From assembly GCA_000182565.2 (NCBI GenBank), contig KQ257453.1: a stretch of DNA of 20,000 bases; one strand, written 5' to 3'. Both the position numbers and the translations under genes were made by a program. This stretch comes from Spizellomyces punctatus DAOM BR117 (Eukaryota). The notes below the pieces were generated by a model. The model saw nothing but the letters and a program-made list of their open reading frames with translations. It was not told the DNA's origin and made no database searches. How positions within the stretch are numbered: the first letter of the stretch is position 1; each line of letters opens with the position of its first letter. Shown here piece after piece: positions 1,040-18,444 of this stretch.

Positions 1040-2890
1040 TCATCTGATCGCCATTCTCCTGTACGCATTAACCAACTCATCCTCAACGTCTTTCTCTCCA
1101 ACAGATTTTCCACACTTTCCGCCCTTTTTCTTGGCCTCCCAAATTTTCCAAAACTTGAGGTTCTCATCGCTTGCGCCGGTCGCTACCGTTTGACCATCAG
1201 GGCTTAAGGCTGTGTGAAGAACACGAGCATCATGGCCTTCCAAATCACCAATCTTGGTCAGTGACGGATATTTCCATATTGAAAGGTGATTGTTGGGAAA
1301 TCCATGAGATGTGAAAAATTCCTTATATTCCAGAGACCACAAGATGGACGTGACTTGAGACCCAGTGTCAACCGAGGCAATTTTTCCAGTGGTGGAAACG
1401 TTCCAAAAGTGAACTGTACGGTCGTGGGAACCTCCTCCTGTCGCCAGAGTGTTCAACTGCCATGGACACCATGCAAGCGCCTAGGTTTGAATAAAGCGGA
1501 GTCAGTACGGTGATGAGTTTTCTAAGAATAGGCGACTTCCTTACCTTTACTGCAGCGGTATGCTCTGCCTTTGTGAACTTAGGAAGACTCGATCTAGCAT
1601 CCCATATGACAACCTGATTGTCATTTCCTCCACTTGCCAGGAACTGTCCATCCGGCCTCCACTTCAGCCCACAGACATCGGACTCGTGAGATAGCAAAGA
1701 GGCCACCCGATGATTAGCCAAACGCACATCATGATTCCAAATACTGCCATCGCGGGCGCCCGAGGAGAGTACATTGGTATCCCAGGCAAGAACACCAACC
1801 CTGCTAGCCCTTCCTCGCATGGTTCGCATCTTTTTCAAACTTTCGAGGCTCCATATTTCTATATCACCCTCGCTCAGACCCACTGCCAAATGACTTCCGT
1901 CGGGTGCCCATTGTAGAGATGCCACGTATGTATCCTCCCGGGTTACCGAGCAAAGTGGCGCTGTTTTACCCGTATTGCCGTTCCAAAGATATACGGTATT
2001 GTCAAGAGCGATTGCTAACATATTGTTCGCCGACCAGTCGATCAAATTCAAGTAGAAATCGTCAGAGAGCCCTGGAGCATCCAAAACCTTCTCCGGTTCC
2101 GATTTCACGCGCCTTGCTGCAACGGTAGAGTTGGGTTTGCGGAGTGGTCTACTCCAGGATGTGCGAAAATCTTGCCGCTGGGCTGCTGGAGGTTCTGCAT
2201 TGAACGCTAAAATGCGCTTATCTAGAGCCACGCCGCACGCTTTAGCGACCTGCTCTTGGTATGCTAAAGTGTCCGGATCCAAAGTTTTCAGCTTTTGCCG
2301 ATCTGTGGTGTCTCGAATATTGAACTGTGAGGATGCTCGATCGATAGCGTCTTGACTTGGCACAAATCGGTCATACTACATAAGGAGAATTGTGCGGTTA
2401 GCTGTCTGAATTGCACAATCAAGGCCTATCCAGTGATCCTCTAATCCATTTCTATATCAAACGAGATGTTCATCTCTTCTATTTAAACAGCTGTGTTCAG
2501 ACCTACCATCCTTTCTTTTGCTTTTCCCCTTTTGCCACCACCACTCGGACTGACAGCCGCGACGCCCAATCGCTGCTTAATAAAGTTCTCTGCATTTCTC
2601 CCACTTATAACAGACGATCGTGGTGAATGCCCTAATCCAGTAGCATTATAGCTGCGCGGAGAGCGGGTATGGGCGACGGACGGTGAAGCACCTCCAGCTG
2701 AAGGACGGGTCGGTGTGCGACCGTGAACATGAAGACGGTCAGCAAAGCTGCGAGTTGGAGTTCCAGCAATCCGGCCAGCTGTACTCTTTCGCCGTGGAGT
2801 TTCCATAGTTTCCCTGACTCTGCGAGCTATCTGAGGGCTCATAGGGTTGAGACCTGTCTGGAGGTCCTTGGAGATGCTTGGGGGCGGCAT
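1040..2890 (-). CDS. CDC20: APC/C activator Cdc20/Slp1/Fizzy family WD40 protein, about 551 aa; exons 2890-2507, 2375-1545, 1480-1040
   Basis: Introns 2376-2506 (GTAGGT..TAG, GCTAAC branch) and 1481-1544 (GTAAGG..TAG) join in frame. Motifs: C-box YDRFVP at the start of exon 2, KILR-like KRILAF, VLDAPGLSDDFYLNLIDWS, HESDVCGLKW, ASGGNDN, HTAAVK|ALAWCPW, DENLKFW and a C-terminal IR tail. The N-terminus is rich in S/T-P sites. Confidence 0.95.
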
Positions 2891-8900: not shown

Positions 8901-9647
8901 TAGCTACTAATTTGGTGCACGCTTATTATCGTCGTGTCATATTCCGCGGGCGCTGCCACAACGCTGGTCTTCTTTATTATCACCTTCGGTGTTCTTTTCG
9001 TGACAACGACCACCTGGGCTCTTCTCATTGGACGGGTCATTCTCAGTCAACTCACTAACGATCCTGCTGATGAGATTGCCAGCCTTCCCAGTACACCAAA
9101 GCTTATGCGGCAAAATGCAGTGGGAGCTGGGGAAGCATTCAAGAGTGCTTCTCAACTGCCAATGTCTGCAAACAGCAGCACAAAGATTCCATCCCCCTTA
9201 GCATCTCAGATGCTTCGTGGAGATATTTCCGAATTTCCTGTGAAAATCACGTCGTCGTGGATCTCCCGATGGGAGCGGTATGAGCTGATCTTTACTCTAG
9301 TACCGGTAGCTCGGTTAGCACTTCGGCCGGTAGCATCCGACAAGGAAGGTGGGCGGAGCTATTGCGTAGACATCAGCAAAGTGCAGGCAACGAAGGCAAA
9401 TGTTAAGGGAGTTAAGAACTGCTTTGAGATTGTCGCTCCTGGTATTACGCTTCTCGTCCAAGCCACCTCTGAGGAACAAGTTCAAGACTGGCTGCGTAGA
9501 ATGAAACAAGCAGGTTGCCTGCGGGGAGAAGATTCTACTGGACGGACCAGTTCAGCTCCTGGTCAAGGCGGCGGCTCGATAAATCGTGCGGACGTCGAAA
9601 CCAAAGGAGGGAAGGATATTTCTAGTGCTGATGTGCTAGGAAAGTAG
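5992..9647 (+). CDS. Class C GPCR-like receptor (signal peptide, Venus-flytrap/ANF-receptor domain, 7TM, C-terminal PH-like domain), about 885 aa, 16 exons
   Basis: Exons 5992-6298, 6365-6488, 6550-6837, 6910-7058, 7124-7206, 7276-7320, 7384-7666, 7741-7875, 7941-8101, 8177-8209, 8272-8340, 8394-8460, 8533-8596, 8658-8739, 8807-8830, 8904-9647; all introns GT..AG and phase-consistent. Flytrap motifs: GVIGEMGSGVT, QCSGSATSEDLS, YFFRTIPPD, FGWKKLGLIY, GPNYVWI, GLTGPIHF. GABA-B-like 7TM motifs: VKALSPEF, CMARPWLYGISF, GKAFRIWKVF, ILLVWSIYSPL, YNGLLLLAATYLAAVTRNVPSRYSESKFI. Confidence 0.9.
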
Positions 9648-11915: not shown

Positions 11916-12755
11916 TCATGTAGACATATTATGATTGGGAAGGATTCAAGGTGGTGACCGGCAAGGAAAGGTATCCAAGAAAGACAAATAGATATAGACA
12001 AATGGACACAATAGACTATTCTACTTCACGTTAGGGTAGCTCTCATGGTGCTTTTCAGAATATGAGATGGAATAACTTCCACAAGTGTAACTAATACGAG
12101 GCTATAGGGGAACGGGTGAAGTAAAGTAAAACCTGCGAACTGACTCTTTTGGAAAGGGCTTTTATGTCTAGCTACGGCCGTTGCGCACAAATCCCTTTTG
12201 GATGGATCATATCTTACCCAGGCAAGACGTTTAGAAGTGAAGGCGGGTTCGGAATATTGTCCTTTGATAAATAAACTGCCAGAACCCTTGTGTTCTCTCT
12301 ACCTATGGAAAAGATTTTTGGATACTGACTCAACTGCTACACTAAGCTTGCGAACGAGAACTGCTAAGAAGGGACTACCGAAATCTGGGTCTTTGGGGTT
12401 AGAGTGCTCCCGAGAATGTCCAAGAGAGATGAGGTACTCACGAGACAGCCGCCAGGTTAAAGCTGTCCACACTGCTTTCACGTGCAGTTGCGCAATCGGA
12501 TGCAGCAAACTTGATCAAGAGGACTTCGTGTGCATGCAGGCGTTCTGAGACCCGCCAGAAGTCGTCAGTCGTAGATCAGTTTTCAGAGGACCTGTTGCAG
12601 ATGGTTCATCAATCCGAGACCTGAACTACCCGCTAGGTAAAGCGTGCCAGTCATGTTATTTAAGTGGAGCGGAGGTTATGGTATAGCGTACTTCCCACCA
12701 GTGTCCATCTACAAGTACCCTCGACATTTGTCGCCTTTTTAACTCATTTGCGGCC

Positions 12756-15454
12756 TCACAGTTTGTGCACACTGCAATATTTGCGGCCGGAGTATGTGCG
12801 TGTCGGACAAGGCTGGTCTGTACGAGGGCCACTGACAAATACATGATGGCACTGCATGCACGACTTTCTGCCAGGCTTTGCCTCTCGGCTACAAGGTTGT
12901 CGGTCACCTGTTCGATTAATGGAGTAAGAAGTGAATCTCAAAAGGGAAAACTGAACTAAGAATTGCTATGCACTGACCGCACACTTTGTTACACAGTAGC
13001 TGTTGCGTTGCCAATGTTGCTGGAGCACGATGTGAAGCAACCTTCTGTTTCTTCTTGATCTTCTTATCTGACTCGCGTGCTGCGCACACGCGTTTCTTGG
13101 AGTCCGTATCCTTTCCATCGTCCTCTCCATCATCTGCTTCATTGAAGCTATACTCCTCCGGCACATACTTGTCGTCTGCCGTCATATTCGCCAAATCATT
13201 TGGCAGAGTGCGATTCAATCGTTCCTCGTCTTCTTCATCTTCCTCATCTTCATCTTCCTCAATCTCCTCAGAGTTGCTGGCACCAGCGTTTCTCGGACGT
13301 CTTCCAATGGTTGCTGGAGGGTTTACCTTGTAGATTTCGGCTATGTACTTCAACAGCTTCGCATGGCGTTTCTCGAATTCCAAACAAGTCCACTGTTGAT
13401 CGGCTTTCACAAGTGTCATGGTAGTGAGCGCGAAGGGGACCATCTCCCCTTTCCGATTTTCAGTATAGATATCCTTCTTAGTCGCCCATGGGGCGTTCGA
13501 GCACTGAATGTTCGTAGAAGCGGGAAGCAAGCATAGGTTGCCGAGACGATTTGTATTCCCTTGAAAGTCGATTTTGTCCCACGCACGTCCGGGGTTTTGA
13601 GGATAGATGTGTTCGATCTGAACCTTCTCCCAATCATATGCCACTTTAGTGGAAGACATCTCCGCATTAATTCGACGAAGTATATATTGTGTAGCGAAGA
13701 TGCCTGCTCCGCCATATAGATTGCCATTAATGCGCGTAAGGAAAACTTTAATTTCTTGAGGCCTAGGTTCGAGCGCCGTACAGACCATCTCATCACTACG
13801 AGCGGTCGCTATGTCCTGAGGAACATTGAATATTAAACAAAAGAAACTAGTGACTGACTTATATTACCATTACCTTCAGAATGTCATAAAATCGGATGAT
13901 CAGTTTTTCCTTTAGTGAATCCACTCCTTTGCGGGGTTGCTTGTAGCCCACAAACAGGACTGCTATCAGTTTCTCTAGTCTATTCCAAAACTCCTCCTGT
14001 TGGAGAAGCTTAATATTGAACTTTCCGGCCGCCAAGGCTACAGTAAGCCACGTGCGCCAAAGCAAGCCAATATCGAAAGTCGTTTTGAGATGAATGCGCG
14101 ACTTATTTTCTCGAACCTGGGCCCAATCCAAGGCAGTACGACTAGGTTCCATGATGGAACGCCATAAGACTGAGTGCGTCTTGATCTTGTCGATCAGGAT
14201 TCCGGGGGTCAATGTATCGAACATGTAACGGTGATAAGGTGAATTTGTGTTCCCTAATGAGGCAGAGAAACTTAACAGAAAGCTCGACTTCTGTGCAGTA
14301 CCAGCCATTTCGATGCGGTATAGATGGTCAAGAAGTTCGCTGAAATTCTGCAAACTAAGAGTTATAACTATGCCGCCCCTCTGCTTCAGGTAAAAAGTGC
14401 ACATACTGCTGTATTGCCAAGTTGTTTCTCGGCTTTAACCCACTGCCCAACTTTCAATTCATATCCATCTCCGACAGAAGCCTTTAGCTTTCCAAAGGTG
14501 ACGGCTTTGAGATAATCCACTGGCGTTAAAGGTACACCGGGCACGTTTAAAGAAGTGAAAATGCGGTATGCTGAGTCCACGTCATGAGTATAAATAACGA
14601 GAAAGCGACACCGCTTATAAAAATAGTGTGCTAGTTTCTCCCTGATGGCGATGTGGCCTGTTCAGCAACCGTCCAATGCTGCTGATGCTTCAGCACTAAC
14701 CTGCTTTCCCGTTCCATGTTCTCTAGAATGCCCGCCAACTCGCGCACGTTTTCGCTGAGTAACTCGACAACAGGACGAGCATCTCGATCCGGAACAGCGA
14801 GTTCATAATCTTTGTCTAAGTGCTCCTCTAAGTCTGCCGGGTCAAGGAAATGGTCGCAGAAAGCTTGGTGATACGGCGCAGCAAGATTTAACCGATACGT
14901 GAAGTAATCTTTCGGAACCGCACTCTTTATCCATTTGGTATAAACTTGCTTCTGGTTCGGTGGTGCGAAATGCCGGAAGACGGAAAGGAGCAATATCATA
15001 GTAGTTAGGCGTTGTTGACCATCCACTATATCAAGTACTCGTTTGCTGTTCTGCTGAGGAGCCAACACAATTGTACCGAGAGGATGATATGGCGCACGTT
15101 CTTTGCATGCATCGTGCACATCGCTAAGAAGCCGTGTTACCATCTGTGGAGTCCAACAGTATCGTCTTTGGTAAATCGGTACTGAAAGGATAATCTGCTG
15201 ATGTTTTGTTGTTTCACCGAAAATGCCTTTCAAGCGCTTTTCGGTGAACAACTTATCATTGTCCTCACCAAAGAGTTGCGCGAGTGTACAATCTCGTACG
15301 TCTCTTATCGCGGTTTGATGCTTTTAGGTATATAATATGAGTTAATTGCCCTGGGAAGTCCAGCAAAGGAAAAACCATTTACCTGCTGGGCTCCGGCCAT
15401 ATTTCCTTGACCCTGATTTTGGCGACGAGGATGATGTCCATTTGCTGTCCCCAT
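12756..15454 (-). CDS. GmrSD/SspE-like DUF262 (NTPase) + DUF1524 (HNH nuclease) protein with an acidic/NLS/zinc-finger tail, about 796 aa; exons 15454-15383, 15320-14701, 14641-14407, 14347-13874, 13815-12978, 12907-12756
   Basis: Five GT..AG introns (62, 59, 59, 58, 70 nt) join the ORFs into one uninterrupted frame. DUF262 motifs: VPIYQRRYCW (PIYQR at 15165-15179), IVDGQQRLTT (DGQQR at 15009-15023) and AYRIFTSLNVPGVPLTPVDYLK. DUF1524 motifs: IEHIYPQ (EHIYPQ at 13597-13614) and RLGNLCLLPASTNIQCSNAPWATKKDIY (LGNL at 13534-13545). The start may instead be the ATG at 15400. Confidence 0.88.
13222..13269 (-). repeat. Low-complexity GAN repeat encoding the acidic tract EEIEEDEDEEDEEDEE
   Basis: Read directly within exon 5 of the DUF262/DUF1524 gene. 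Confidence 0.85.
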
Positions 15455-15739
15455 CTCATCGGAAAATAGTTGGCCACTCCATTCCCTTACGTAATGACTG
15501 GATACTATATCAAAAGCTCGCACATCTGACACAATCCTGGATGCAGATGTGCCCTCACCACAGGAGAGTTTACCTTAGGGCAAGCTGTCCAATTTCGGTG
15601 TTTTGCAGCCAAAACCATGCATCCTGAGCCAGAATCGTGATTAAACTAGATTTTGACACAATAGAGGCACTCAGTTTGAACATAGCCCTAGATACAAGAC
15701 CACCTTTCAATGCCAGAAAGCCCCAAGTTGTCATATGCA

Positions 15740-16852: not shown

Positions 16853-18444
16853 ATGTCCGCAGCTGCCTTTCTTTTCCAAGAAGTACCAGTCTCGACGATC
16901 CTTATCCTGCTCGGTTTCCTCGTTCTTCTCAATTTTGCTCGCACGCTCTTCACGATTGCATTGCGTGCCGGGCTAGTGGGAGAGATTGCCATCGGCCTAG
17001 TGTTTGGCACCCCGCTACTGGATTTGCTTGGTGTTGGGCTTCAGGAGACCTTTGCTGCATTAGGGTATTTGGGGCTTCTTTCCATTGTGTTTGAAGGTAC
17101 GGATATCGTCATTGTTGGTTTGCTTTTGAGTTGGTATCAATAAGTTATTCACCATGGTGTCACTTTCAAGGTGGACTGGGAACGAACCTGAAACAAGCCA
17201 AGCGCAACATTGGGCTATCCCTGTTAGTTGGCACTACAGGCATATGTTTGCCGATCGTAACATGTATCCTTTTCTTTCACTTTGGGTTCAGTTCTACATT
17301 CTTGCAGGGGTTCACTGCTGGTGCGGCTTTGAGTGCCACCTCCCTTGGAACTACTTTCAGCATTCTGGAGGATGCAGGATTAACTAAGACAAGGGTTGGG
17401 ACTGTGCTAATCAGCGCTGCTATGTTTGACGATGTGGTTGGGTTGGTGATATCGCAGGTACCATCAAAGGTTCTGTTTTACAATGAATCGGTTATGCACG
17501 TGCTAATATCAGTATGCATACAGGTCGTCCACGGACTTGCACAAGATGCCCACCACGGCGCAAATGCCATAGGATGGCAAATTGGTCGTCCGATACTCGC
17601 ATCAGCTGGGTTGCTCCTGGTAACCTACGTACTTGTTAAAGTAGGCTTGCTCATCTTACCAGCACTTTTGGCCCGTATGTCATTGAGCAGCCGAGGCCAC
17701 CAATACTGGAGCGTCGTAGCATTGTTCATTTTACTCGTTGCATTCATCGCAATATCGTCCTACAGTGGCACGTCACATCTCCTAGGGACATTCTTGGCCG
17801 GGATATCACTCCGAGCAATTGAATCCGGTCTCACGCAAAAGACAGGAGCAGAACCACATTGTGCCCCGTCACACATATTTGAGCGGCACATTCGGCCGAT
17901 TCAAGAATATGTGTTTGCACCGCTTTTTTTTGCGACGATTGGGTTCGCGATACCTATTCGAACAATGTTTGATGGAGAGACCTTGTGGATGGGGCTTGTG
18001 CTGACAGTTTTGATGACCGTTGCCAAATGGCTGTCAGGGATTTCGGTTTTGGTTTGGAATTTAAGACCGAAAGAGAACTTGATGGATGAAGCAGCTCTGG
18101 AGATCGTCGTGGGGCCAAATTCTTTGGGTGAATTCAATTCCACAAGGGAATTAGTTCCGATGACGGTGCACGAAAATGCAAACCTGGTTAGCCCAGAGTT
18201 TAAGCCCGATACGCGCAATCAGAAAGACGTGAAGCTTCTCCCGTTAATGATTCTCGGATTCTCTATGGTTTCCCGCGGAGAGATAGGGCTCTTGATAGCA
18301 AATATTGCTTACCCTAGTGTATTAGACGAGCGTCTATTCAAAGTTTCCATATGGGCGGTGTTGTTGTGTACTATTATTGGGCCATTTGCCGTTGGGCACA
18401 TGGTAAAAAGTGGAGTAGTGGAGCGCTTGGGCAAGTGGGGATGA
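16853..18444 (+). CDS. Cation/H+ antiporter (Na_H_Exchanger, CPA2-type), about 483 aa; exons 16853-17096, 17171-17457, 17524-18444
   Basis: Introns are 17097-17170 and the in-frame 17458-17523. Motifs: GLVGEIAIGLVFG, LGYLGLLSIVFEG|GL, GAALSATSLGTT, AAMFDDVVGL (ion-binding DD), LLGTFLAG, FAPLFFATIG, MVSRGEIGLLIA. Many transmembrane segments. Confidence 0.9.

What the first reader, a model, noticed from the sequence alone, without database searches (positions are those of the whole stretch)
12756..12998. Hidden last exon adds a C-terminal Cys/His zinc finger to the nuclease
Seen in sequence: the ORF track ends the protein at 12916, but a 70-nt intron (12908-12977, GTCAGT..CAG, phase 1) joins it to a further exon. 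This gives LLCNKVC|GDRQPCSREAKPGRKSCMQCHHVFVSGPRTDQPCPTRTYSGRKYCSVHKL*. The last part is a C-x13-C-x10-C-x2-H finger, preceded by a second Cys cluster with a similar QPC...GRKxC repeat. From recall (unverified), CxxxFxxGxRxxxxC...YCxxH fingers are frequent in nucleocytoplasmic large DNA virus proteins. Inference: it is an added DNA- or chromatin-binding module, and may hint at passage through, or domain capture from, a giant virus.
Basis: partly seen in the sequence, partly recalled or inferred. Interest (0 to 1): 0.75.

Follow-up and report, generated by a model that had tools for sequence, protein, structure and literature searches.

The report
Zinc-finger tail on a chytrid nuclease
The last small exon of a chytrid fungus's bacterial-type GmrSD nuclease gene is real and already in the public gene model, and it encodes two small cysteine/histidine zinc fingers of an unnamed type that otherwise occurs in tandem arrays, with look-alikes mostly in giant-virus proteins.

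Summary
On the minus strand, a 70-nt phase-1 intron (12977-12908, GTCAGT..CAG) joins the 290-aa ORF to a last exon (12907-12756).

The exon is not hidden. The window is Spizellomyces punctatus, and the public 796-aa model SPPG_03059 already ends with exactly this tail.

The gene is an intron-bearing GmrSD-type nuclease (DUF262 + DUF1524) with all catalytic motifs. After the nuclease come an acidic linker, a basic NLS-like patch and the Cys/His tail.

The last 29 residues (C-x13-C-x10-C-x2-H) belong to an unnamed finger family. A scan of 1.84 billion proteins gave 9 hits, and 7 are tandem arrays of the same finger. A profile built from 27 of their copies scores the tail at 36-42 bits, against a maximum of 18 for shuffles.

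The nearest named families, WRC, TRM13-CCCH and KANSL2-type, match only relatives of the tail, mostly below their cut-offs.

A fold search with one array protein gave 41 giant-virus rows in its top 50. Eight of these are named HNH endonuclease.

Capture from a virus is not shown. The locus is ordinary chytrid DNA, and the intron splits finger 1. Neither splice-junction reads nor the orthologue's last exon could be obtained.

The parts
12756..15454 (-). Coding region of SPPG_03059 (796 aa): 6 exons, 5 introns
   Evidence: The window reproduces P0001 letter for letter with this model. P0001 is 100% identical to the ORF 12916-13788.
12908..12977 (-). Intron 5: 70 nt, phase 1, GTCAGT..CAG. If retained, the protein ends at the stop 12918-12916 without fingers.
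   Evidence: RNA depth in the bin holding it is 1.74, against 10.9 in the exon bin beside it. No junction read was listed.
12756..12907 (-). Last exon (aa 747 in part, to 796, plus stop): most of finger 1 and all of finger 2
   Evidence: Minus-sense RNA depth is 10.9-15.2 over 12651-12884.
12849..12993 (-). Finger 1 (aa 742-766, interrupted by intron 5): C742-x3-C746-x5-C752-x10-C763-x2-C766. This is the C-x9-C-x10-C-x2-C spacing. C742 and C746 lie in exon 5.
   Evidence: One search gives the positions. The family profile matches only its second half, weakly: 0.6 bits and 4.5 bits. C-x-K-V-C at the exon end is conserved in P0002.
12765..12851 (-). Finger 2 (aa 766-794): C-x13-C-x10-C-x2-H, a full-length member of the array-finger family
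13042..13098 (-). Basic patch KKR..KKIKKKQK (aa 707-725), resembling a bipartite nuclear localisation signal
   Evidence: From the sequence. A similar patch is in P0002. The NLS function is inferred.
13099..13281 (-). Acidic low-complexity linker (aa 646-706; 28 of 61 residues are D or E)
13348..13695 (-). GmrSD_C / DUF1524 HNH-type nuclease domain (aa 508-623) with the E-H (IEH), N (GNL) and N (STN) motifs
   Evidence: PF07510, E=1.4e-17. Motif positions. Motif list from PMC4619093, Table 2.
14500..15203 (-). GmrSD_N / DUF262 ParB-like domain (aa 64-278, spanning intron 2) with the QR, IVDGQQR and FxxxN motifs
   Evidence: PF03235, E=2.4e-31
12385..12441 (-). 57-nt spliced intron (GTGAGT..CAG) downstream of the stop codon. 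It is either a 3'UTR intron of this gene or part of a separate minus-strand transcript.
   Evidence: Loose ends of 6 and 7 RNA reads at 12442 and 12384; the loose letters match the sequence across the gap.

Best explanation
SPPG_03059 of Spizellomyces punctatus is a resident, intron-bearing GmrSD-type enzyme. It has a DUF262 ParB-like NTPase domain and a DUF1524 HNH-type nuclease domain.

Its mRNA is spliced at 12978|12907, so the protein ends in a 55-residue Cys/His tail. The tail holds two abutting CCCH-class zinc knuckles.
- Finger 1 has WRC-like spacing (C-x9-C-x10-C-x2-C) and straddles the splice site.
- Finger 2 (C-x13-C-x10-C-x2-H) is a regular member of an unnamed finger family. That family otherwise forms tandem arrays, in places beside HNH, SAP or Rho_N modules.

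An acidic linker and an NLS-like basic patch lie just upstream. Taken with them, the tail most likely binds zinc (one ion per finger) and holds the nuclease on nucleic acid in the nucleus, probably DNA. It would act as the targeting or tethering part while the GmrSD core does the cutting.

Shown here: the exon and intron, identity to the public model, family membership of finger 2, and intact catalytic motifs.
Inferred: zinc binding, DNA binding, nuclear location, and any effect on nuclease specificity.
For: - Gene model. The window reproduces P0001 exactly with intron 12977-12908. P0001 is the public SPPG_03059.
- Coding signal in the exon. phmmer gave 9 hits at E<=1e-3 in 1.84e9 proteins. 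Seven of them (E from 6.4e-9 to 3.6e-4) carry 3-6 copies each of the same finger: 29 copies with loose spacing, 27 with exact spacing.
- Profile score of 36.0-41.6 bits over 31 of 36 positions. Controls: next-best window segment 8.3 bits; shuffles at most 11.7 and 18.2 bits.
- Beyond the ligands, the tail has the residue commonest in the family at 9 of the 26 other positions of the 30-position finger (H3, F5, G8, P9, Q13, G22, Y25, S27 and K30). At 8 more it has one of the next three commonest.
- Company of the finger. P0009 has a borderline HNH_2 hit (20.7 bits, cut-off 21) followed by 4 fingers. P0003 alternates Rho_N/SAP-like stretches with fingers.
- BFVD look-alikes of P0007 include 9 of 50 rows named HNH endonuclease and 1 named Endonuclease VII.
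- Analogy. The plant WRC finger (CX9CX10CX2H) binds one Zn with a KD of 14 nM, folds only with zinc, and takes part in DNA recognition. This is from preprint 10.1101/2025.01.03.631214, Results 3.1-3.3 and passages read.
- The AF2 model of P0007 (pLDDT 78.6) shows short strand pairs followed by a helix starting after C-x2-H. The preprint describes the same order of elements.
- The nuclease core is intact: QR, IVDGQQR, FxxxN and E-H-N-N are present in P0001. P0002 is 60% identical over 765 aa.
- RNA. Minus-sense depth is 10.9-15.2 over the last exon and drops to 1.74 in the bin holding the intron. So the bulk RNA over the exon does not retain the intron.
Against: - No read or contig was listed across 12978|12907. 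Depth over exon 5 is only about 1-1.4.
- The roughly 8-fold step at the exon boundary could also mean a separate transcript that starts near 12900.
- The only orthologue found (P0002, Geranomyces) ends in what looks like read-through of the same intron. So the Cys/His of the last exon could not be checked in any orthologue.
- Pfam finds nothing in the tail at E<=10 except Zn_ribbon_11 at E=0.31.
- The PDB sequence searches gave only chance-level rows.
- AF2 on the tail failed, with pLDDT 51.7.
- Finger 1 matches the family profile only weakly and over half its length. Its fourth ligand, C766, is also the first ligand of finger 2, so the true ligand sets are unresolved.
- Most CCCH fingers bind RNA rather than DNA (stated in the WRC preprint's Discussion).
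- Zinc and nucleic-acid binding were not measured.
Confidence: 0.6

Rival explanations
1. The finger module was captured from a giant virus, or the gene passed through one. The tail would be a viral DNA-binding module grafted onto the nuclease.
For: - The family member P0007 has its BFVD look-alikes mostly in giant viruses. In the top 50 rows, 41 bear giant-virus names (Pithovirus 28, mimivirids 8, iridoviruses 4, Orpheovirus 1). Three are Solivirus, 4 are phage and 2 are unnamed. The best E-values are 2.9e-5 and 8.3e-4.
- Six of these names were checked as Nucleocytoviricota.
- The Atlas gave weak leads (scores 0.76-0.81) to Nucleocytoviricota clusters.
- An earlier AI note (e1-5465414, unchecked) describes a giant-virus nuclease with 15 CCCH fingers.
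Against: - The link runs in two steps: tail to P0007 by sequence, then P0007 to viral proteins by fold. TM-scores in the second step are only 0.15-0.36.
- The tail's own model gave no match at E<=0.001 in BFVD. It gave 2 rows at E 0.69 and 4.5.
- BFVD holds viral proteins only, so it cannot show that eukaryotes lack the finger.
- The nearest named families are eukaryotic: WRC, TRM13 CCCH and the KANSL2 type.
- No direction of transfer can be read from these data.
- The locus has host-like GC (0.42-0.50) and neighbours such as CDC20/Fizzy, a PH-domain protein and a Na/H exchanger.
- The gene has five host-size introns.
- Intron 5 lies inside finger 1, and C-x-K-V-C upstream of it is shared with Geranomyces. 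So the tail predates the split of two families of Spizellomycetales.
- None of the 5 array proteins tried had a relative in IMG/VR by the pattern method.
Confidence: 0.15
2. The tail is an RNA-binding or protein-binding knuckle, for example ubiquitin-binding like A20. It would regulate or localise the enzyme without touching DNA.
For: - The best solved-structure matches of finger 1 of P0007 are A20-type zinc fingers: 3oj3_I (Z 4.3, rmsd 1.3 A over 32 of 33 residues), 3vux_E (Z 3.9) and 2l00 (Z 3.5).
- TRM13-type CCCH hits occur in relatives: P0009 scores 21.4 bits against a cut-off of 20.9.
- Most CCCH fingers act on RNA (WRC preprint, Discussion passage).
Against: - All Z values are under 5. 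The tool's own note says such values may mean only a common arrangement.
- The match is to a relative, not to the tail.
- The fingers keep company with HNH nucleases, SAP and Rho_N, which fits nucleic-acid binding.
- The host protein is a DNA nuclease.
Confidence: 0.15
3. The last exon is not part of the nuclease mRNA. It belongs to a separate, more abundant minus-strand transcript that starts near 12900 and runs past 12300, and the public model joined it by prediction.
For: - Depth is 10.9-19.2 over 12300-12884 (apart from one bin at 4.3) but 0-1.7 over all the upstream exons.
- No junction read was listed.
- A further spliced intron (12441-12385) lies downstream.
- An in-frame ATG (M764) precedes finger 2.
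Against: - The library looks 3'-biased. It has a poly-T loose end at 15618, with depth 56.7-102.9 next to it. That would give the same step.
- Finger 1 is completed only by the splice, which puts C742 and C746 in register with C752, C763 and C766.
- The two upstream Cys are conserved at the very end of exon 5 in Geranomyces, where the surrounding linker is not.
- After VC, the P0002 protein reads S-E-C. That fits a GTGAGT donor in the same phase, an inference from the protein letters only.
Confidence: 0.07

Closest known systems
GmrSD type IV restriction enzymes (DUF262/GmrS + DUF1524/GmrD; Eco94GmrSD, GmrSD of E. coli CT596)
   Same: Both Pfam domains are present above their cut-offs. All four motif sets of PMC4619093 Table 2 are present: QR, I/VDGQQR, FxxxN and E/D-H-N-N. 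It is the fused two-domain form, which that paper reports as the common one.
   Different: This one is eukaryotic. That paper found 3 eukaryotes among 613 organisms with complete genomes that carry GmrSD, in the passages read. It has five spliceosomal introns, an acidic linker, an NLS-like patch and a C-terminal zinc-finger tail. 'Zinc' occurs 0 times in that paper's main text. The substrate and any dependence on modification are unknown.
WRC domain of plant GRF transcription factors (PF08879, CX9CX10CX2H)
   Same: Both are CCCH-class fingers with the C-x10-C-x2-[H/C] second half. Finger 1 has the C-x9-C spacing. Both have basic residues around the finger. The WRC binds one Zn and takes part in DNA recognition. 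Two array relatives score just under the WRC cut-off, at 26.4 and 25.9 bits against 28.6, and carry PF08879.16 in the database's precomputed list.
   Different: The tail has no Pfam WRC hit and no W-R-C tripeptide (it has Q-P-C). Finger 2 has x13 rather than x9. The fourth ligand of finger 1 is Cys. The preprint states that the WRC is found strictly in plants.
Unnamed tandem-array finger C-x-[HY]-[IV]-[FYL]-x2-G-x6-C-x10-C-x2-[HC] (metagenomic proteins P0003-P0007, P0009, P0010; giant-virus look-alikes in BFVD)
   Same: Finger 2 has the exact spacing and many of the non-ligand consensus residues. It scores 36-42 bits against the profile. In one relative the finger is attached to a nuclease (P0009; viral rows named HNH endonuclease).
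   Different: In the relatives there are 3-6 copies separated by linkers. Here there is one full copy directly abutting a shortened one, at the C-terminus of a large cellular enzyme. All 7 relatives are unnamed metagenome proteins, so their hosts are unknown.
TRM13 CCCH finger (PF11722), KANSL2/INO80D-type zf-C3Hc3H (PF13891) and DUF5763 (PF19067)
   Same: All are small C..C..C-x2-H knuckles. Relatives of the tail give weak hits to the first two. The Atlas lists DUF5763 clusters among the nearest, at scores of 0.79-0.81.
   Different: None of them matches the tail itself. The Atlas scores are below the tool's reliability bar of 0.9.

Membership tests
GmrSD (type IV restriction enzyme family) | N-terminal DUF262/GmrS (ParB-like) domain | tested here: met
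   PF03235, E=2.4e-31, 109.8 bits against a cut-off of 33.2, aa 64-278
GmrSD (type IV restriction enzyme family) | C-terminal DUF1524/GmrD (HNH-type) domain | tested here: met
   PF07510, E=1.4e-17, 64.3 bits against a cut-off of 23, aa 508-623
GmrSD (type IV restriction enzyme family) | Conserved motifs QR, I/VDGQQR, FxxxN (GmrS) and E/D-H-N-N (GmrD) | tested here: met
   QRRY at 75, DGQQR at 124, FTSLN at 259, IEH at 534, GNL at 559, STN at 567. Motif list from PMC4619093 Table 2.
GmrSD (type IV restriction enzyme family) | Cleavage of DNA that depends on a base modification | not testable with these tools
   Needs an enzyme assay
WRC domain (PF08879) | CX9CX10CX2H ligand pattern | tested here: not met
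   Finger 1 is C-x9-C-x10-C-x2-C, with Cys as fourth ligand. Finger 2 is C-x13-C-x10-C-x2-H. Pattern taken from the preprint's Introduction.
WRC domain (PF08879) | Pfam model above the gathering score, and the W-R-C tripeptide | tested here: not met
   No WRC hit at E<=10 for the tail. The tail has Q-P-C in place of W-R-C.
Unnamed array finger (C-x13-C-x10-C-x2-[HC]) | Exact ligand spacing plus the consensus [HY]3, [IV]4, [FYL]5, G8, G22, [YFL]25 | tested here: met
   Finger 2 has H3, V4, F5, G8, G22 and Y25. It scores 36.0 and 41.6 bits against the profile of 27 copies, with shuffles at most 18.2. The profile was built from hits found with this same tail, so it is not fully independent.
Unnamed array finger (C-x13-C-x10-C-x2-[HC]) | Tandem array of 3 or more copies with linkers | tested here: not met
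   There is one full copy and one shortened, abutting copy.
DUF5763 (PF19067) | Pfam model match | tested here: inconclusive
   No hit in the tail, nor in any of the 8 fingers scanned singly at E<=10. HMMER's filters drop weak matches. The only sign is Atlas leads at 0.79-0.81.
zf-TRM13_CCCH (PF11722) / zf-C3Hc3H (PF13891) | Pfam model match | tested here: inconclusive
   No hit in the tail. Relatives: P0009 scores 21.4 bits against 20.9 with no single stretch passing; P0004 scores 21.8 against 27.
A20-type zinc finger | Fold likeness to solved A20 fingers | tested here: inconclusive
   Finger 1 of the relative P0007: Z 4.3, rmsd 1.3 A, 32 residues aligned to 3oj3_I. The Z is below the level that separates kin from a common arrangement. 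The tail itself could not be modelled.
Any zinc finger | Binds Zn(II) through the Cys/His residues | not testable with these tools
   Needs metal analysis of the purified tail

The most novel reading that the evidence does not exclude
Chytrids keep a bacterial-type, modification-dependent GmrSD nuclease as a nuclear defence enzyme. It is sent to the nucleus by its NLS-like patch and held on DNA by fingers of the same type that giant viruses attach to their own HNH nucleases. It would then be a eukaryotic counterpart of type IV restriction, aimed at invading DNA with modified bases, such as giant-virus or other foreign DNA. The finger type would be shared by host and virus through an old exchange.
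Probability: 0.1. Interest if true: 0.7.

Novelty: new member of a known kind. Interest (0 to 1): 0.3.

Why it matters
The exon itself adds nothing new, because the public model already has it. Three modest points remain.

1. The tail, which no Pfam model matches, can now be read as two CCCH-class zinc knuckles. One is a clear member of an unnamed finger family that forms arrays and has look-alikes in many giant-virus proteins, several of them named HNH endonuclease.
2. A GmrSD-type enzyme with intact motifs, introns, an NLS-like patch and fingers is shared by two chytrid families. That makes it a tractable case of a bacterial restriction-type nuclease domesticated in a eukaryote.
3. The Geranomyces model probably lacks its last exon.

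If the tail does steer the nuclease, it would be a natural zinc-finger-plus-nuclease design in a fungus.

Tried and rejected
- **Whole genome.** None is held for this window.
- **RNA junction.**
  - X2 and X3 proved to be DNA contigs that run through the introns.
- **Word-index protein searches.**
  - With the tail, only P0001 came back.
  - With the 8-row finger alignment, only the input proteins came back.
I repeated it with the 49-aa tail as first row.
- **Orthologues.** Only P0002 was found, in the 509-2000 aa range. Shorter proteins were not searched.
- **Genomic context of the array proteins.**
  - The search for related loci in viral contigs with A1 was not usable.
  - With P0009, P0007, P0006, P0005 and P0004 it gave no confirmed locus.
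  - In metagenome contigs, P0012 and P0004 gave none.
  - This method needs exact 8-residue words, so these misses say little.
- **Phage records.** tblastn with P0004 found no match. With P0001 it gave 7 weak DUF262-only matches at 24-36% identity.
- **Pfam.**
  - The tail gave nothing beyond Zn_ribbon_11 at E=0.31.
  - Finger 2 scanned alone matched no family at E<=10. Among the 8 fingers scanned singly, five families were each matched by one member.
- **PDB by sequence.** Only chance-level rows.
- **Structure.**
  - AF2 on the tail gave pLDDT 51.7.
  - BFVD with that poor model gave 2 rows at E 0.69 and 4.5.
  - PDB Foldseek with the P0007 model gave no row at E<=1e-3; the best was the MCM10 internal domain at E=0.9.
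- **Other hits.** P0008 (WCxxCQGLF repeats) and P0011 (a barley low-complexity protein) were set aside as unrelated, because neither holds the finger pattern.
- **Literature.**
  - 0 papers for 'DUF5763' and 0 for 'SPPG_03059'.
  - For '2-cysteine adaptor' I saw only the search listing and did not follow it.
  - None of the 4 papers listed for 'DUF262', 'DUF1524' and 'fungi' concerns fungal GmrSD, judging from the listing.
- **Earlier findings of this scan.** Nothing by place or by sequence.
Full report
**1. The observation**

On the minus strand, the 290-aa ORF 12916..13788 ends at a stop at 12918-12916. A GTCAGT begins at 12977 and a CAG ends at 12908. Removing these 70 nt (phase 1) continues the frame into 12907-12759, with the stop at 12758-12756.

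I rebuilt the whole gene from the window. Among the GT/AG pairs near each of the five junctions, one combination gives a 2391-nt coding sequence whose translation equals the stored protein P0001 letter for letter. The exons are:
- 15454-15383
- 15320-14701
- 14641-14407
- 14347-13874
- 13815-12978
- 12907-12756

The introns are 62, 59, 59, 58 and 70 nt long.

**2. The exon is not hidden**

The ORF is 100% identical to P0001, the public protein SPPG_03059 of Spizellomyces punctatus DAOM BR117. That protein has 796 aa and is named only 'DUF262 domain-containing' or 'uncharacterized'. Its C-terminus already carries the full tail. The exon was missing only from a naive ORF track.

**3. What the gene is**

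- Pfam finds GmrSD_N (PF03235, E=2.4e-31, aa 64-278) and GmrSD_C (PF07510, E=1.4e-17, aa 508-623).
- All motif sets listed for the family are present: QR, I/VDGQQR, FxxxN and E/D-H-N-N. The list is from Table 2 of PMC4619093, whose Conclusions section and other passages I read.
- After the nuclease come three further parts. First, an acidic linker (28 of 61 residues are D or E). Second, a basic KKR..KKIKKKQK patch (aa 707-725). Third, the Cys/His tail.
- The one orthologue found, P0002 of Geranomyces variabilis, belongs to another family of the same order. It is 60% identical over 765 aa and shares this layout up to the end of exon 5.
- The neighbours in the window are ordinary eukaryotic genes: CDC20/Fizzy WD40, a PH-domain protein and a Na/H exchanger.
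- GC is flat at 0.42-0.50. The coding sequence has GC 0.474.

This is a resident chytrid gene, not a recent insertion.

**4. What the tail is**

The 49-aa exon peptide has no Pfam match at E<=10 except Zn_ribbon_11 at E=0.31. The PDB sequence search gave only chance-level rows.

A full HMMER scan of 1.84 billion representative proteins gave 9 hits at E<=1e-3.
- Seven of them are P0003-P0007, P0009 and P0010, with E from 6.4e-9 to 3.6e-4.
- These seven are built from 3 to 6 tandem copies of one finger, C-x-[HY]-[IV]-[FYL]-x2-G-x6-C-x10-C-x2-[HC].
- That makes 29 copies with loose spacing and 27 with the exact spacing.
- The other two hits (P0008 and P0011) do not hold the pattern and were set aside.

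The chytrid residues 766-794 have the same spacing. They also have H3, V4, F5, G8, P9, Q13, G22, Y25, S27 and K30 of the family.

A profile of the 27 copies scores this finger at 36.0 bits and 41.6 bits in the six-frame scan. The controls were:
- the next best of 515 six-frame segments of the window scores 8.3 bits;
- 2000 composition shuffles reach at most 11.7 bits;
- 2000 shuffles with the four ligands fixed reach at most 18.2 bits.

The profile comes from hits found with the tail itself, so it is not fully independent. But the seven proteins agree with each other at the positions listed.

Finger 1 (aa 742-766) reads C-x3-C-x5-C-x10-C-x2-C, which is C-x9-C-x10-C-x2-C.
- Only its second half matches the profile, and weakly (0.6 and 4.5 bits).
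- It repeats the QPC..GRKxC of finger 2.
- Its last Cys (C766) is also the first Cys of finger 2, so the exact ligand sets are open.
- Its first two Cys lie in exon 5. The splice is therefore needed to complete it.

**5. Named relatives**

The seven array proteins give only sub-threshold or borderline Pfam hits:
- WRC: 26.4 and 25.9 bits against a cut-off of 28.6
- zf-C3Hc3H: 21.8 against 27
- zf-TRM13_CCCH: 21.4 against 20.9, with no single stretch passing
- zf-primase: 25.5 against 28.8

The database's precomputed list carries PF08879.16 for P0006 and P0007.

According to preprint 10.1101/2025.01.03.631214, the WRC domain is CX9CX10CX2H. It binds one Zn with a KD of 14 nM, folds only with zinc into a beta-hairpin, a loop and a short helix, and takes part in DNA recognition. 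I read Results 3.1-3.3 and passages of the Introduction and Discussion.

The AF2 model of P0007 (pLDDT 78.6) shows, for each finger, short strand pairs followed by a helix that starts after C-x2-H.

Against about 48,000 solved chains, its first finger is most like the A20-type fingers:
- 3oj3_I: Z 4.3, rmsd 1.3 A over 32 residues
- 3vux_E: Z 3.9
- 2l00: Z 3.5

These values are too low to claim kinship. The tail is therefore a CCCH-class knuckle pair, close to but not a member of WRC.

**6. The viral link**

- All seven array proteins are unnamed metagenome proteins. Their contigs could not be fetched.
- The Atlas gave only weak leads, with scores of 0.76-0.81, to DUF5763 clusters and Nucleocytoviricota clusters.
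- Foldseek of the P0007 model against BFVD gave 426 rows at E<=10 and 2 at E<=1e-3.
- Among the top 50 rows, 41 bear giant-virus names: 28 Pithovirus, 8 mimivirids, 4 iridoviruses and 1 Orpheovirus. Three are 'Solivirus sp.', 4 are phage and 2 are unnamed.
- Nine rows are named HNH endonuclease (8 of them Pithovirus), one Endonuclease VII, and one 'CCCH zinc finger in TRM13 protein'.
- I checked 7 names in the taxonomy: six are Nucleocytoviricota, and the seventh, Solivirus sp., is placed under Caudoviricetes. The remaining names I take as giant viruses from recall.
- TM-scores are low (0.15-0.36), as expected for flexible arrays. Identities are 10-31%.
- The chytrid tail's own model was too poor (pLDDT 51.7). 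It gave only two rows, at E 0.69 and 4.5.

BFVD holds only viral proteins, so it cannot show that the finger is viral rather than general.

Nothing gives a direction of transfer. Four things speak against a recent capture:
- the host-like locus;
- the five host-size introns;
- the intron lying inside finger 1;
- the conserved C-x-K-V-C at the end of exon 5 in Geranomyces.

**7. RNA**

One RNA run of the same species label (X8, 60-nt reads) was laid.
- A poly-T loose end at 15618, together with the strand column, shows that in this library the first mate has the sense of the RNA.
- Minus-sense depth is 15.2 at 12651-12767 and 10.9 at 12768-12884.
- It is 1.74 in the bin 12885-13001, which holds 23 nt of the exon, the whole intron and 24 nt of exon 5.
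- It is 0-1.4 further upstream.
- The bulk RNA over the last exon therefore does not carry the intron. But no junction read was listed, so joining to exon 5 is not shown directly.
- The step in depth fits a 3'-biased library. It also fits a separate transcript that starts near 12900.
- Downstream of the stop, reads continue to 12300 and are spliced at 12441-12385 (loose ends of 6 and 7 reads).

**8. The orthologue's end**

P0002 ends ...ICGKVC-SECTGVVCPIMDLCRFGD. The letters S-E-C after VC fit a GTGAGT donor in phase 1 at the same place. The model therefore probably reads into the intron and lacks its last exon. Both are conserved.

**9. Reading**

Most likely (0.6), the tail is a zinc-binding, nucleic-acid-binding module that tethers or targets an active GmrSD-type nuclease in the nucleus. 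Rivals:
- an RNA- or protein-binding role (0.15);
- an exon that belongs to another transcript (0.07).

**10. Novelty**

The exon is already public. A full-text search for 'SPPG_03059' found 0 papers, and one for 'DUF5763' found 0. In the GmrSD phylogenomics paper, 'zinc' occurs 0 times in the main text; its additional files were not opened.

What this work adds is an annotation of the tail as CCCH-class fingers of an unnamed array family, on a rare eukaryotic GmrSD. I rate it a new member of known kinds and of modest interest.

Noticed in passing
window 12385-12441 (-), and 12300-12755: Minus-sense RNA continues at depth 4-19 for at least 450 nt past the stop codon. It is spliced at a 57-nt GTGAGT..CAG intron: the loose ends of 6 and 7 reads match the far side. 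This region has only short ORFs. It is either a long 3'UTR with an intron or a separate non-coding or short-ORF transcript.
   Followed up: partly
window 15144-15268 (-), inside exon 2: One 90-nt contig of a root-metagenome RNA run (X1) skips 125 nt with GT..AG ends on the minus strand. Depth is 2 and the shorter side is 29 nt. Two other contigs of the same run read straight through. The skip is not a multiple of 3 and would remove the QR motif. It may be a non-productive splice form or an assembly artefact.
   Followed up: no
window 15618 (-): A poly-T loose end (11 reads, agreement 0.99) marks a poly(A) site of the upstream minus-strand gene. It lies only 164 nt before the annotated ATG at 15454. 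Depth there is 56.7-102.9.
   Followed up: no
window 15400-15454 (-): The Geranomyces orthologue starts at the residue that aligns with M19 of P0001. The first 18 residues of the Spizellomyces model have no counterpart, so the true start may be the ATG at 15400.
   Followed up: no
window 13470-13703 (+): Reads of the opposite sense (depth 2.4-2.8) outnumber sense reads (0) over part of the nuclease domain. This may be a weak antisense transcript.
   Followed up: no
P0002 (Geranomyces variabilis HDU89_000947), C-terminus: The public model ends in 20 residues that look like read-through of the intron homologous to 12977-12908. Its last exon is probably missing.
   Followed up: partly
P0009 and P0003 (metagenome proteins): P0009 has an N-terminal HNH_2-like stretch (20.7 bits, cut-off 21) followed by four fingers at its C-terminus. 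P0003 alternates Rho_N/SAP-like stretches with five fingers. The finger thus recurs beside nucleic-acid-handling modules.
   Followed up: partly
taxonomy of 'Solivirus sp.' (taxid 2487772): The local NCBI taxonomy places it under Caudoviricetes, genus Solivirus. Neighbouring taxids 2487770, 2487771 and 2487775 are Mimiviridae. This is probably a clash of names. It would also explain the 'Uroviricota' labels in the Atlas rows.
   Followed up: partly
window 1040-2363 (-), 8934-9647 (+), 17131-18444 (+): The neighbouring genes are a CDC20/Fizzy WD40 protein (two ORF pieces), a PH-domain protein and a Na+/H+ exchanger.
   Followed up: no
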